DNA of 64,000 bases from the human T2T-CHM13v2.0 reference genome, Homo sapiens. The translations under genes and the position numbers were made by a program. Shown piece after piece: positions 34,930 through 40,590 of the stretch. Below the pieces are notes generated by a model. That model was given only the letters and a program-made list of their open reading frames with translations. It did no database searches and was not told the origin of the DNA. Numbering within the stretch: position 1 is the stretch's first letter; the number at the start of each line of letters is the position of its first letter. The DNA lies in the NCBI RefSeq assembly GCF_009914755.1, contig NC_060938.1. One strand, given 5' to 3'.

Positions 34930-35070
34930 ATCATCTACCAACTAGGATGTGAGTTCCATGAGGACACCACTGTCACTTTTGTCTTTTTATTCATTGCTTT
35001 GTTCCAAAAGCTTAGAATGGTGCATACCATGTAGTAGAAACTTAATAAATACTTGCTAAATAGATGGATG
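34930..35070 (+). mobile_element. L2 3' end
   Basis: actaggatgtgagttccatgagg...cttagaatggtgcataccatgtagtag...aataaatacttgctaaatagatggatg. Confidence 0.75.
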
Positions 35071-35159
35071 CATTTGGCATTTGCTGTTTTGATGACAAGT
35101 AATATGGTCTATAGTTTAGTTAATATGATGCATTAAGGTCAACTGCCTGGTTTGGATCA

Positions 35160-35587
<428 letters not shown>

Positions 35588-35954
35588 AGAAATTATTTTT
35601 TAAAAAGTTTTTTGGGAAATTGAGAATGGAGAAGGGAAAAAGGAGTAAGGACATGAAAGGCTGAGGACCATTGACTCTGGAATAGTGCAGGAAGACAAGG
35701 TATGGGCAAGAAAGAGCTGATGTGAGTGCTGGCAATTTGCCTCTGGAAGGCCAAATAGCATTTGACTACTACTCAATCTTTTTGGAAAATCTTGAATTAA
35801 AATCTCAAATACTCACTGTCCACTGTGAAATTTCAATTTCATCAGTATTCTTTTACCTGTGCTGCTTTTATCTATCTGCTGATGGCTGCTAGTGCTAGCT
35901 GCACAAAGCCCTGAGTTCTAGACCTTCTCTCCCTGCTTAAAGTTTATTAACAAG

Positions 35955-36249
<295 letters not shown>

Positions 36250-36410
36250 GTTTATTAGCAAGTATAAATGTATCAGAACTTAACAGGTCAATTTCTTGTA
36301 TTATTGTGAGACTAAAAAAAATTGGGAAAAAAGGAAAGCTTTGAAGAGAAAAAAATGGGTAGCCATCAGAATCATTTTGTGAAAGGAACAAATACTAATA
36401 AGTTAATCTA

Positions 36411-36641
36411 TTGTTCTCAACAACCTGTTATCCATAATAGGAAAGGAATCCAGTATGTGCATGACTAAGTTAACTACTCAAAACTTTCAAAACCAGAAGC
36501 CAAAAGAAGTTATAGTTTATTTTAAGCAATATCCACAAAACCTAATATAGTCCACTTCTGAGTAATCATTTAATTATGGTATTCTATCATTTTATTTTTA
36601 AAAAATATGCTGAGTACATAAACATGACTAAAATATCAACA
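36411..36641 (+). repeat. Inverted repeat arm A (231 bp, probable donor)
   Basis: Reverse complement aligns to 38958-39191 with 8 substitutions and one 3-nt indel (manual alignment). Confidence 0.97.
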
Positions 36642-37509
36642 CATTCTTTCTTCCTACACATAACTATTAATCTTAAATGTTCCAAGAGAAGATGTTTAAA
36701 AAGTAACCCTTTGCAGAACTAGCCCTTCTCTCTGGAGCTGTAGGCCTCTCTTCTTCCCAGCCCCCTCCTTTTCTTTTCTTTTATCTTACTCGTCACCTTG
36801 CAGTCATGAGTATTGTAGCATGTAGGAGTGGACTGCTGAGAGAAGGGAAGAAGGATGCATTTTGCATTCACTTGTACATCAGCCTTGAAGCCTGGCTGGT
36901 GGCAATATTGTGGACAATAGATCTTTCAAACAAATAGACCCTTGTCTGTTCCTTCCTTCTGTAATTGTTGGCAGAGTTCTTTGTTATGTGTCTGGTTTCT
37001 TGAAACTTTGAATGAATAAACTAGGACACGGGATTAATGTAAAGAACTGGCATCTTTGCTGACTTATTCAACAGACTGTGTGTACATAGAAAAGAGAAAT
37101 AAGCACTTTCAGAAGTGTTGTCTGCACATGCCTGGGATTTTACAAAATTTAAACAATGTGAAATGCAGTACCTTGAAAAAAGCCAGGCTAGTCTCTGGAC
37201 TCTGTAGTTTACTTTCTAAATAAAAAATATCCTATTGACCATAAGCAAATGAACAATTCACCTGTTAGCATATGGACCAAATATAGGCCAAGATATGTAG
37301 TGGTAGAGTTACAAGTAAATTTTTTGATGTGAAGTGTCATAGAATTTACAGCCAAATGAAGTGAGTACCTCTTTGTAGCAGGGTAATGATGAAAAAGATT
37401 AGGCAAAGTTTAAAGTTGAGACGCAGTTTTCCTACCTGGAGAGAATGGACATTGTTACCTAAAATTCACATTGTACAATGGAGTGATACATGAGTTGTTC
37501 ACAGTAGAC

Positions 37510-37724
37510 CGACCTTTCTCAGCCTCAGCTCTGTTGACATTTTCAAATAACAACTTGCTGTTAGGGACTGTTCTGCACATTGTAGGATGTTTAGCACCAT
37601 TCCTATCTTATGCCTGCTAGATACCAGCAGCACTCCCCTTCCAATTGTGCAAATAAAAAATGTCTCCAGACATTGCCAAATGTCCTCTGGAAGTCAAAAA
37701 AGCATTCCTGGTTGAGAATCATTG
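37510..37724 (-). mobile_element. MER20 (hAT-Charlie)
   Basis: cattgtaggatgtttagca; aaaaatgtctccagacattgccaaatgtcc; ggttgagaatcattg. Confidence 0.9.
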
Positions 37725-38271
37725 TACTAGACCAAGGAATGGATCATATTGACCAGAAGGAAGTTGTATATTATTAAAAAAAATTATCCAACTCCAGAAG
37801 AAGTATACTGGGGCAGTCTAACTTGGGGACCTTTTGAATGTCTCCACCATGGGAACAAAGGCTAAGTAAAGCAGTGGCCCATTGCTCAGTCCAACAGCAC
37901 TCCTCCATCAATTACCCCCTCTTGACTTTTTGTGTCTTTAGTCTCTTAATCGGCCTCGACTTCTTTTCCTTGACCTTTAAATTGTCTCCTTTATCCTAAA
38001 GCAAATCAAAATTACTCCTGATAATGCAAAGGTATAAAATTACTATGATGTCTTCACATCACTACTAACTTTTTTGAAAAGTAGTCTTCATTCTCTACCT
38101 CTACTTCCTCACTGTCTACTTTCTGGAATACATCCCAGTTTGGTTTTTTCCCCCTATGTCACTACTTAAAGTGGCTGCCCAAATGCTACAATCCAACTTC
38201 TCAATGATCACATTAACTGAACTTTTTGTGTACTTATCTTTGACTTCCATGCAACTTTTGATACTCTTAAT

Positions 38272-38467
38272 CAATGGTTCTGAAACTTTTTTTGTGCATC
38301 AGGATCACTGGTGAGTTATTAATAGTTAAAATACAGATTTCTGAATTCAACACCCAGAGTTCCTAATTCCGTCGGGCTAGGATGTAGACTGAGGATTTGC
38401 ATTTCTAACGAGTTCCCAGATACTGTCCACGCTGCTAGTCTGGGGGATCACAAATCAAGAGCCATGC
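38272..38467 (-). mobile_element. MER5A (hAT-Charlie)
   Basis: caatggttctgaaact; gtgcatcaggatcactgg; atttgcatttctaacgagttcccaga; gctgctagtctgggggatcaca. Confidence 0.85.
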
Positions 38468-38588
38468 CTTGATTATTCTCTTCTTGAGTGCTTCAGTTGA
38501 CTTTTACAATACCATAGTTTCCTGATCTTGACGCTTAATGACATTTGTAGTCACATTTTCTGGTTTCTTCTACCCTTTTTCTCTAAAA

Positions 38589-38823
38589 CAGGGCAATGTT
38601 GCCCCTCAGAGAACATTGGTCAATGTCTGGAGATGTGTTTAGTTATCACAAATAACTAGGAGGAGGGGAAGAAGGAAGAGAAGAGGGTCCACTGCTACTG
38701 ATGTCTAGTGGGTAGAGGCCAGGGGTGCTGCTAAACATCCTACAGGGCACAGGACAGTATTATTCACAGGACAAAGTATTATTCGTCTCAATATGTGAAT
38801 ACTGCCAAGATAGAGAAACACTG
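38589..38823 (+). mobile_element. MER20 (hAT-Charlie)
   Basis: caatgtctggaga; tctagtgggtagaggccaggggtgctgctaaacatcctaca; gagaaacactg. Confidence 0.9.
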
Positions 38824-38860
38824 CTCTGGATGCAGGCATTCTCTCCAAGTAGATATATAT

Positions 38861-39324
38861 TCTTTTTTTTTGTTATGAGACAGGGTCTCACTCTGTCACC
38901 TAGGCTAGAGTGCAGTAGCACAATCATAGCTCACTGCAGCCTCCAGGAATCGAGACCTGTTGATATTTTAGTCATGTTTATGTACTCAGCATATTTTTTT
39001 AAAATAATATGATAAAATACCATAATTAAATGATTACTCAAAAGTGGTCTACTATATTAGGTTTTGTGTATATTACTTAAAATAAACTATCACTTCTTTA
39101 GGCTTCTGGTTTTGAAAGTTTTGAGTAGTTAACTTAGTCATGCACATACTGGATTCCTTTCCTATTATGGATAACAGGTTGTTGAGAACAACCTGGTCAA
39201 TATTTTGGAGAGATGAGGACTTGCTATGTTGCTCAGGCTGGAATCAAACTCCTGGGCTCAAGCGATGCTCCCACCTCAGTCTCCCAAAGTGCTGAGATTA
39301 CAGGTGTGAGCCATGGCACCCAGC
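38861..39324 (-). mobile_element. AluJ split by a non-Alu inverted insertion (Alu parts 38861-38944 and 39192-39324)
   Basis: Tail and right arm to gcagcctcc, then foreign sequence, then cctggtcaatattttggagagatg...ctcctgggctcaagcgat...cacccagc; ~70 nt of Alu missing. Confidence 0.9.
38958..39191 (-). repeat. Inverted repeat arm B (234 bp, derived copy inside AluJ)
   Basis: Reverse complement of 36411-36641; 39101-39191 (91 nt) and 38958-38999 (42 nt) are identical to arm A. Confidence 0.97.
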
Positions 39325-39541
39325 AAAGAATGGCCTTTTTATCTTCTCTTCAGTCTATACCTCTCTCTTGTCGACCTCAGACATGCCCAGCACTTCAACT
39401 CTCACACGTCTCTGGAAATGACTCCCAGAGGTATTATCTTTAAATACGACATTACTCTTGGGTCTGGCCTGAATTTGCAACTGCCTGATAAATATAAGCT
39501 TAATGAGCCACCGGCATCTTAAGTTTAAGATGCGCAAACTA

Positions 39542-39848
<307 letters not shown>

Positions 39849-40355
39849 GCCCAAACTAAACATATCCTTCCAGTAAGAGAATCCTTTATTGCCAGTAATG
39901 GTAATTATTTGATAAGGTGTGTCTCTACCCCCTTTTGACCTTCATAACTTGTAAAAATGGTACAAGATGATTCTTTTAAGAAAAGTATAAAATCACATGT
40001 ATGGTTCAGAAATACCACTCTGGCAGGAATTTGAGGAGGTGACAGATATTCAAGAAAATTGAAAGAGAAACTTTCCATTCCATGTGAGATTATCTAACTT
40101 TTGATTGGCCAGGGAGAAATGTGTCTTATTATTCCAAGTGAAAGTAAATGTATCTGCCTGCCTAGATCTCAGCCTAGTATTGATTGGAGAAAATACTGAT
40201 CTGATGCTTTATGCTTCGAGAAAGAAAGCATATTGAGTATATGATCTTCTCACACATATGATCAGTCTTTTCATTAGATTTGTTTTACCGTGATGTATTT
40301 TGTTCCTCAATAGAATGCCATGTATATGATTGTTACTGGTACTCATAGTAAATCT

Positions 40356-40590
40356 AATAATATCCACCATTTTCAGAGCACTTACTAAGTGTCAGAACAA
40401 GTGCTTTGCATGCCATCTTATGTATACTAAGCCTATGGGGTAGATTTTATTATTGTACCCATTATGCACCCATGGAAGCTAAAGACTAGAGAGAATGAGG
40501 GATACACGCAAGGTCACCTAGATCACAACTGGTATAATTAGGATTTGAAGACAGGCTGTTTGACACCTAAGCTGATACTTCCAAAGACTA
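40356..40590 (-). mobile_element. MIR SINE, near full length
   Basis: gagcacttactaagtgtcag...cctatggggtagattttattattgtacccatt...caaggtcac...ggatttgaagacagg. Confidence 0.75.

What the first reader, a model, noticed from the sequence alone, without database searches (positions are those of the whole stretch)
36411..39191. Unique 231-bp segment copied in inverted orientation into an AluJ 2.3 kb away
Seen: 38958-39191 is the reverse complement of 36411-36641 (8 substitutions, one 3-nt indel). It lies between the two halves of a minus-strand AluJ, replaces ~70 nt of the Alu, has no TSD or poly(A), and has a 13-nt Alu-like filler (aggaatcgagacc, 38945-38957) at one junction. Inference: a locally templated inverted insertion from replication template switching or break repair (FoSTeS/MMBIR-type), not retrotransposition. 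The AluJ halves and host L2 remain colinear, so arm B is the derived copy and this haplotype has the ancestral orientation.
Basis: partly seen in the sequence, partly recalled or inferred. Interest (0 to 1): 0.8.

Follow-up and report, generated by a model that had tools for sequence, protein, structure and literature searches.

The report
Local inverted copy inserted into Alu
A 231-base stretch of an NRXN3 intron was copied backwards into an old Alu element 2.3 kb away, an ordinary but unusually clean relic of error-prone DNA repair or replication that leaves a long hairpin-forming repeat in the intron.

Summary
Arm A (36411-36641) and the reverse complement of arm B (38958-39191) share 223 matches, 8 substitutions and one 3-nt indel. 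The whole assembly has only these two copies. A neighbouring old repeat searched the same way gave 1601 first-look candidates.

Arm B and a 13-nt filler lie between two colinear, same-strand parts of one old minus-strand Alu that lacks about 71-84 nt. It has no poly(A), no target-site duplication and no detectable junction microhomology. So arm B is the derived copy.

Best reading: one DNA-templated, inverted copy-and-paste with a deletion at the insertion site. This is a long-range relative of template-switch mutations and MMBIR. Replication switch and break repair cannot be told apart here.

The filler is not significantly Alu-like (11 of 100 shuffles match as well). "Host L2 colinearity" found no support (0 of 11 related copies).

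New points: all 9 differences fall in the central 98 nt (p about 0.005-0.011). As RNA, the arms pair at 222 of 231 nt.

This is a known kind of event. Interest is modest.

The parts
36411..36641 (+). Arm A, the source copy (231 nt), embedded in unique intronic sequence
   Evidence: the 1146-nt region 36255-37400 has no other match in the genome except arm B, and that homology is limited to 36411-36641.
36642..38859 (.). Spacer between the arms, up to the start of the inner Alu part. It is non-coding intron and holds two inverted copies of an old dispersed repeat (about 37567-37706 and 38558-38848).
   Evidence: pairs I13, I18; 1601 first-look candidates. The hub table lists no exon here.
38860..38944 (-). 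3' part of the interrupted old Alu (T-run on the + strand, then the end of the right monomer). It lies inside the inverted pair.
   Evidence: alignment to six full-length Alus of the window. family D4: direct repeat of the minus-strand Alu at 35290-35375.
38945..38957 (.). 13-nt filler (AGGAATCGAGACC) of unresolved origin
   Evidence: no other copy in the window at 2 mismatches or fewer; the best Alu match has edit distance 2, which 11 of 100 shuffles reach.
38958..39191 (-). Arm B, the derived inverted copy (234 nt): 8 substitutions and a 3-nt insertion at 39048-39050 relative to arm A
39192..39326 (-). 5' part of the same Alu (left monomer, linker and the first bases of the right monomer). 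It lies outside the inverted pair.
   Evidence: Metazoa_SRP-like match at 39208-39324, minus strand, 53.8 bits. family D2.

Best explanation
One mutational event in an ancestor broke, or stalled replication within, an old minus-strand Alu in an NRXN3 intron. About 71-84 nt of the Alu were lost. A DNA end was extended on the opposite-sense strand of a unique stretch 2.3 kb upstream, which may have been the nascent strand folded back on itself. That synthesis copied 231 nt in reverse complement. The product was then joined back into the Alu, with 13 extra nucleotides at the inner junction. In effect this is a long-range switch-and-return template switch, or equivalently synthesis-dependent break repair finished by end joining. 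Shown: the two-copy inverted duplication, the interrupted Alu, the deletion, the filler, and the absence of retrotransposition hallmarks. Inferred: that it was a single event, that the template was DNA, and the pathway. By-product: the NRXN3 pre-mRNA now carries a 231-nt near-perfect inverted repeat predicted to fold into a long double-stranded stem.
For: The inverted pair shares 223 of 231 positions plus one indel. There are only two copies in the 3.1-Gb assembly, while the same search returns 1601 first-look candidates for a real dispersed repeat next door. Arm B lies between colinear, same-strand parts of one Alu that lacks about 71-84 nt. There is no poly(A) and no TSD. Arm A's surroundings are continuous unique sequence. 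The 8 substitutions argue against an assembly duplication artefact, which would be expected to give identical copies (inference). Reverse-complement copies of nearby sequence that replace the local stretch are the signature of the four-point template-switch model (PMC5453318, passages). Events up to 318 bp are recorded in human haplotypes (PMC9435742, passages). Templated insertions and raised point-mutation frequency are stated junction signatures of BIR/MMBIR (PMC4352052, passages).
Against: No microhomology is visible at either junction when arm A's flanks are compared with arm B's flanks. The 13-nt filler is not explained by a single switch-and-return. The source lies 2316 nt away, beyond the 'few tens or hundreds of bp' given for local template switches. 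Blunt junctions with a filler fit end-joining capture of a free fragment equally well. No outgroup or second haplotype could be examined, so the ancestral state (an intact Alu without arm B) is inferred and not seen. Differences between the arms are not spread evenly, which a simple old neutral duplicate does not predict.
Confidence: 0.78

Rival explanations
1. Capture of a free nucleic-acid fragment at a double-strand break by non-homologous end joining. The fragment would be a roughly 231-244-nt DNA piece released from the same locus, or a cDNA made from NRXN3 intronic RNA, ligated in reverse orientation into the broken Alu.
For: Both junctions lack detectable microhomology, and one carries a 13-nt filler. 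There is a deletion at the insertion site. Arm A lies in a transcribed intron on the sense strand (hub table). That insertions without poly(A) or TSD arising through end joining are a described class of templated sequence insertions is recalled, not checked here.
Against: The source is only 2.3 kb away on the same chromosome. That is expected for a proximity-dependent template switch but would be a coincidence for a freely diffusing fragment or cDNA (inference). No trace of RNA processing or an A-tail is present.
Confidence: 0.13
2. The arms are the terminal inverted repeats of a 2.8-kb DNA transposon, or members of a dispersed repeat family.
For: The geometry is 231-nt inverted termini around a 2.3-kb interior.
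Against: The genome has exactly two copies, both here. The interrupted Alu's two parts flank arm B alone, not the whole 2.8-kb unit, and the left side of arm A is unique non-Alu sequence. No flanking direct repeat is seen.
Confidence: 0.01
3. The arms are breakpoint duplications left by an inversion of the 36.4-39.2 kb interval, or the present haplotype carries an inverted spacer.
For: Inverted duplications can flank replication-based inversions (general knowledge, recalled).
Against: The Alu part inside the pair (38860-38944) and the part outside it (39192-39326) are on the same strand and colinear with full-length Alus. So the spacer has not been flipped relative to the outside, or has flipped an even number of times.
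Confidence: 0.03
4. An assembly artefact duplicated the segment.
For: None was found. It could not be tested with reads.
Against: The arms differ at 8 sites plus an indel, and the junctions are unique sequence. The NCBI repeat mask in the hub table independently marks the two Alu parts (38850-38949, 39216-39326) with an unmasked gap between them.
Confidence: 0.02

Closest known systems
Short-range template-switch mutations (four-point model; PMC5453318 passages; PMC9435742 passages; great-ape survey PMC7954356, listing only)
   Same: A stretch of the local sequence is replaced by the reverse complement of nearby sequence in one switch-and-return. This creates an inverted repeat that can form a hairpin.
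   Different: Scale and distance differ. Reported events average 11.56 bp, with the longest 318 bp overall and maxima of 97-180 bp per individual outside masked repeats. They occur within tens to hundreds of bp. Here 231 nt were copied from 2316 nt away, with an extra 13-nt filler that a single 2-to-3 fragment does not explain.
FoSTeS / MMBIR complex rearrangements (named in PMC9435742 and PMC4352052 passages; the original papers were not read)
   Same: Shared features are template switching to a nearby sequence, possibly in inverted orientation, templated insertions at junctions, and error-prone synthesis.
   Different: Those events are described at kilobase-to-megabase scale and with junction microhomology. 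This one is sub-kilobase, and no microhomology is detectable.
Polymerase-theta / synthesis-dependent microhomology-mediated end joining templated insertions (PMC7407515 passages)
   Same: Break repair inserts direct or inverted copies of nearby sequence with a deletion. Apparently untemplated filler is common.
   Different: Pol theta is stated to synthesise 1-25 nt per round. That could account for the 13-nt filler but not the 231-nt copy.
Non-repetitive long intramolecular dsRNAs of the human genome (Andrews and Bass preprint, PMC11838218; abstract and sections 9-10 read)
   Same: This is an intronic, non-transposon inverted pair predicted to form a long, highly paired duplex. Such structures are sparse, at about 2 per Mb.
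   Different: At 231 bp it is below their 300-bp cut-off for 'long, highly paired'. NRXN3 is not mentioned in the main text (0 occurrences), and the supplementary tables were not seen.
Inverted Alu pairs as dsRNA and editing substrates (general knowledge, recalled)
   Same: These are inverted repeats within one intron.
   Different: The arms are unique sequence at about 96.5% identity with a 91-bp perfect run. The Alu-Alu pairs in this window are 72-92% complementary.

Membership tests
Template-switch mutation (four-point model) | The new fragment is the reverse complement of nearby sequence on the same chromosome | tested here: met
   223 of 231 positions identical in reverse complement; only these two copies.
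Template-switch mutation (four-point model) | The fragment replaces the sequence between the leaving point and the return point | tested here: met
   About 71-84 nt of the Alu are missing at the insertion site (spacing argument).
Template-switch mutation (four-point model) | Short range: the switches lie within tens to hundreds of bp | tested here: not met
   The arms are 2316 nt apart. The range is as stated in PMC9435742.
Template-switch mutation (four-point model) | The whole change is explained by one copied fragment | tested here: not met
   The 13-nt filler has no template in the window at 2 mismatches or fewer, and its Alu match is at chance level.
Template-switch mutation (four-point model) | The ancestral state is seen in a related genome | not testable with these tools
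   No primate genome or second human assembly is held. The own-genome search has no relatives (header).
FoSTeS / MMBIR | Microhomology at the breakpoint junctions | tested here: inconclusive
   Reading, arm A's flanks share no terminal bases with the sequence adjoining arm B at either end. The deleted Alu bases that would matter for the return junction are unknown.
FoSTeS / MMBIR | Templated insertion copied from nearby sequence, allowed in inverted orientation | tested here: met
FoSTeS / MMBIR | Excess point mutations made during the low-fidelity synthesis | tested here: inconclusive
   All 8 substitutions and the indel lie in 98 of 231 nt (range test p = 0.011 and 0.005). Without an outgroup they cannot be assigned to the event or to arm B.
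L1-mediated retrotransposition (target-primed reverse transcription) | A poly(A) tail at one end of the insert | tested here: not met
   The ends of arm B are read. The only A/T run there belongs to the host Alu (38860-38872).
L1-mediated retrotransposition (target-primed reverse transcription) | Target-site duplication flanking the insert | tested here: not met
   there is no direct repeat at 38945-38957 versus 39192 onward. Host sequence is deleted instead.
DNA transposon with terminal inverted repeats | A multi-copy family | tested here: not met
   Two candidates, both local. Positive control: 1601 candidates for a neighbouring old repeat.
DNA transposon with terminal inverted repeats | The interrupted host sequence lies on the two outer sides of the whole element | tested here: not met
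   One Alu part lies inside the pair and one outside. Left of arm A is unique sequence.
Pol-theta-mediated templated insertion | Insert built from short synthesis tracts (1-25 nt per round, PMC7407515) | tested here: not met
   The copy is 231 nt and contiguous. Only the 13-nt filler is in that size range.

The most novel reading that the evidence does not exclude
The copy is younger than its 3.5% divergence suggests. Most of the 9 differences, all packed into the central 98 nt between a 91-nt and a 42-nt perfectly copied end, would then have been written during the event itself. On this reading the locus preserves a switch to a very low-fidelity polymerase and back, within a single germline templated insertion.
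Probability: 0.2. Interest if true: 0.5.

Novelty: new member of a known kind. Interest (0 to 1): 0.3.

Why it matters
This locus is a clean, datable, single-copy example that sits in size and distance between short-range template-switch mutations and kilobase-scale FoSTeS/MMBIR rearrangements. Systematic scans largely exclude that range by design. The four-point study states that it does not try to explain long-range switches.

The event also shows how unique-sequence inverted repeats arise. These are the sparse "non-repetitive dsRNAs" of the human genome, at about 2 per Mb.

The product is a predicted 231-bp stem with a 91-bp perfect run inside the pre-mRNA of NRXN3. It is a plausible substrate for A-to-I editing. 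No function is indicated, and no exon lies between the arms (hub table).

The uneven spread of differences would bear on the fidelity of the copying synthesis if outgroups assign them to arm B.

Otherwise this is an ordinary neutral relic in a very large intron.

Tried and rejected
- **Filler template:** No second copy exists in the window at 2 mismatches or fewer. Against six full-length Alus plus the host Alu, the best match has edit distance 2. It lies at one Alu site in the orientation opposite to the host, in 3 of the 6 Alus. Since 11 of 100 composition-preserving shuffles do as well, the "Alu-like" label is dropped. By eye, 5-6-nt matches to arm A's right flank and to the host Alu's left monomer are also possible. 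I treat them as chance.
- **Host-repeat colinearity:** The left flank, 38540-38852, belongs to an old dispersed family: 40 of 1601 first-look candidates were scored, at 70-91% identity. In 11 of 11 fetched copies the family match ends between 38758 and 38848. In 0 of 11 does the next 500 nt resemble 39327-39541. The 3 scores above the shuffle maximum (L008, L009, L011) fall on the next Alu, from 39542 onward.
- **RNA families:** Rfam at E up to 1 over 35000-40500 gave 16 matches. Fifteen are SRP-like or Alu-derived-microRNA-like matches below gathering score. The 16th is a weak SOX2OT_exon2 match at 40054-40132 (E 0.92). None lies in either arm.
- **Scripts that misled:**
  - MAFFT right-justified the last 11 nt of the Alu 5' part, so the automatic count of 53-58 missing residues is an undercount.
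  - A semi-global alignment set-up failed and its filler scores are meaningless. Both were replaced.
- **Literature:**
  - "dDUP-iDEL" is found in 0 papers.
  - "NRXN3" + "inverted repeat" + "intron" returns 5 papers, none about this locus by title and abstract listing.
  - So I found no description of this locus in the searched library. Supplementary tables of dsRNA and editing catalogues were not seen.
- **Transition/transversion ratio:** 3 transitions of 8 is not significantly low (p = 0.088).
- **Alu-Alu-guided switching:** I considered the plus-strand Alu at 35950-36259 as a guide. I rejected it because the product lacks the 320 nt that would then lie between the Alu and arm A (inference).
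Full report
**1. The observation**

- 36411-36551 pairs with 39191-39051, and 36552-36641 pairs with 39047-38958.
- There are 223 matches and 8 substitutions.
- Three extra bases sit in arm B at 39048-39050.

The repeat finder reports the same pair as two blocks of 141 nt (97%) and 94 nt (95%). Among the 25 longest inverted pairs of the whole 64-kb window, all the others fall in stretches that the hub table lists as masked repeats, and all are 72-92% complementary. This pair is the exception on both counts. Chance is not a candidate explanation for 231 nt at 96.5% identity.

**2. Not a repeat family**

A search of the whole 3.1-Gb assembly with arm A found two first-look candidates and scored both. 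They are arm A itself and arm B.

A 1146-nt query around arm A (36255-37400) gave the same two places even at E up to 10. Homology to arm B was limited to query positions 157-387, which is 36411-36641.

The tool warns that it scores only the best candidates and skips very common words. As a positive control, the old repeat just left of the Alu (38540-38852) gave 1601 first-look candidates by the same route. Forty of these were scored, at 70-91% identity. So a dispersed family of that age would have been seen.

**3. What arm B sits in**

I put the sequence in Alu-sense orientation and aligned it with six full-length Alus of the window.
- 39335-39192 covers the Alu from its 5' end through the A-rich linker to the first bases of the right monomer.
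- 38944-38845 covers the end of the right monomer and the A-tail.
- Both parts are on the minus strand and in the right order.

Three further results agree.
- Both parts are direct repeats of the minus-strand Alu at 35245-35616, with start-to-start spacings of 3570 and 3738 (families D4 and D2). That means 168 nt more between them than in that Alu. With 247 nt inserted (234 + 13), about 79 nt are missing.
- An approximate-matching script gives 84 nt missing against the Alu at 35945-36262. This becomes 71 nt if the last 13 reference bases are credited to the diverged linker piece that the split Alu retains.
- Rfam finds an SRP-like (Alu left-monomer) match at 39208-39324 on the minus strand, at 53.8 bits. 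Each of the three intact Alus nearby gives two such matches, and the split one gives only one.

The element is old by its 67-82% identity to the other Alus.

**4. Polarity and orientation**

An Alu cannot insert as two halves around a pre-existing segment. The outer part also runs past the linker into the right monomer, so it is not a free left monomer. Arm A lies in uninterrupted unique sequence. Hence arm B is the derived copy.

One Alu part lies inside the inverted pair and the other outside it, yet they are on the same strand. So the 2.3-kb spacer is in its original orientation.

In the 11 related copies fetched, the family match ends between 38758 and 38848. None of the 11 continues into sequence resembling 39327-39541. 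This does not exclude a very diverged L2, because no repeat library was available.

**5. Junctions**

- **Outer junction (39191|39192):** it is clean.
- **Inner junction:** it carries 13 nt (38945-38957).
- **Microhomology:** comparing arm A's flanks with the sequence next to arm B shows no shared terminal bases at either end. For the return junction the relevant bases are the deleted Alu bases, which are unknown.
- **Filler:** it has no other copy in the window at 2 mismatches or fewer. Its best match to any Alu is edit distance 2, in the orientation opposite to the host. Since 11 of 100 shuffles do as well, its origin is unresolved.
- **Retrotransposition marks:** there is no poly(A) and no target-site duplication.

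**6. Mechanism**

The anatomy is a reverse-complement copy of nearby sequence that replaces a local stretch. This matches the four-point switch-and-return model, which allows the nascent strand itself or the other template strand to be copied (PMC5453318, passages).

It differs in scale. Human template-switch events average 11.56 bp, the longest recorded is 318 bp, and they occur within tens to hundreds of bp (PMC9435742, passages). Here 231 nt came from 2316 nt away.

At the other end of the scale, BIR/MMBIR junctions show microhomology, templated insertions and extra point mutations (PMC4352052, passages). Microhomology is not seen here.

Polymerase theta is stated to synthesise 1-25 nt per round (PMC7407515, passages). 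That fits the filler but not the long copy.

My preferred account is a single event. A 3' end from a break or stalled fork in the Alu was extended for 231 nt on the opposite-sense strand 2.3 kb away. It was then released and joined back by end joining, which added the filler. Replication switching and break repair cannot be told apart from this sequence.

The main rival is ligation of a free DNA or cDNA fragment into a break, which the blunt junctions allow. The 2.3-kb proximity of the source argues against it. A transposon, an inversion by-product and an assembly artefact are each contradicted as set out under rival explanations.

**7. Age, and an unexplained pattern**

The raw divergence is 8 of 231, or 3.5% (Jukes-Cantor 0.0355). 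With recalled neutral rates of 0.5-1.0 x 10^-9 per site per year, this gives about 18-35 million years. The Poisson interval spans roughly 7-68 million years. That would place the event in an ape or Old World primate ancestor. This is an inference that needs outgroups.

However, all 8 substitutions and the indel lie between 36502 and 36599, a span of 98 nt.
- The outer 91 nt and the inner 42 nt are identical in both arms.
- Under a uniform spread, a range this narrow has p = 0.011 for the 8 substitutions and p = 0.005 when the indel is included. The test was chosen after seeing the data.
- Taken alone, zero differences in 133 sites would cap the age at about 11-22 million years (95%). The central 8% would imply several times that.

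Candidate explanations are a low-fidelity tract during the copying synthesis, later gene conversion of the ends, local mutability, or chance. The arms contain no CpG, and 3 of the 8 substitutions are transitions, which is not significantly few (p = 0.088). Polarising the differences with outgroups would decide between these.

**8. Consequence at the RNA level**

NRXN3 is on the plus strand and the window lies within one of its introns. No exon of any listed transcript lies between the arms (hub table).

Folding the 2781-nt span as RNA gives a minimum-free-energy structure in which 222 of 231 arm A bases pair with arm B. The two arms alone form a duplex of -335 kcal/mol, and the longest perfect run is 91 bp.

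A preprint that catalogued predicted human dsRNAs reports the following (PMC11838218, sections 9 and 10):
- Non-repetitive dsRNAs occur at about 2 per Mb.
- 31,017 of 5.1 million predictions are more than 96% paired.
- Long, highly paired structures are depleted in genes.

NRXN3 is not named in its main text, and its supplements were not seen. Whether this stem forms or is edited in vivo is untested.

**9. Verdict**

It is a specific, well-preserved instance of a known mutation class, so I file it as a new member of a known kind. It has no evident function.

The clustering of differences is the one feature that could make the locus more than a curiosity.

Noticed in passing
window 36502-36599 versus 36411-36501 and 36600-36641: All 8 substitutions and the indel between the arms lie in the central 98 nt. 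The 91-nt and 42-nt ends are identical (range test p = 0.011 and 0.005, chosen post hoc). No single neutral age fits both parts.
   Followed up: partly
window 38558-38848 (+), 37567-37706 (inverted partner), 35730-35762: There are copies of an old, very abundant interspersed repeat here. It gave 1601 first-look candidates genome-wide, and scored copies are 70-91% identical. The family was not named because no repeat library is available. Two copies form a weak inverted pair (73-78%) inside the spacer.
   Followed up: partly
window 35245-35616 (-) and 35950-36259 (+): A closely spaced inverted Alu pair lies just upstream of arm A. Its blocks are 64-136 nt long, 78-92% complementary and 367-685 nt apart. 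This is the usual kind of intronic double-stranded RNA former. It shows no link to the arm A/B event.
   Followed up: no
window 35403-35454 (-), 39213-39273 (-), 35327-35386 (+): Matches to the microRNA families mir-1268, mir-1285 and mir-3135 lie inside Alus. All are below gathering score, as expected for Alu-derived families, so they are not evidence of microRNA genes here.
   Followed up: no
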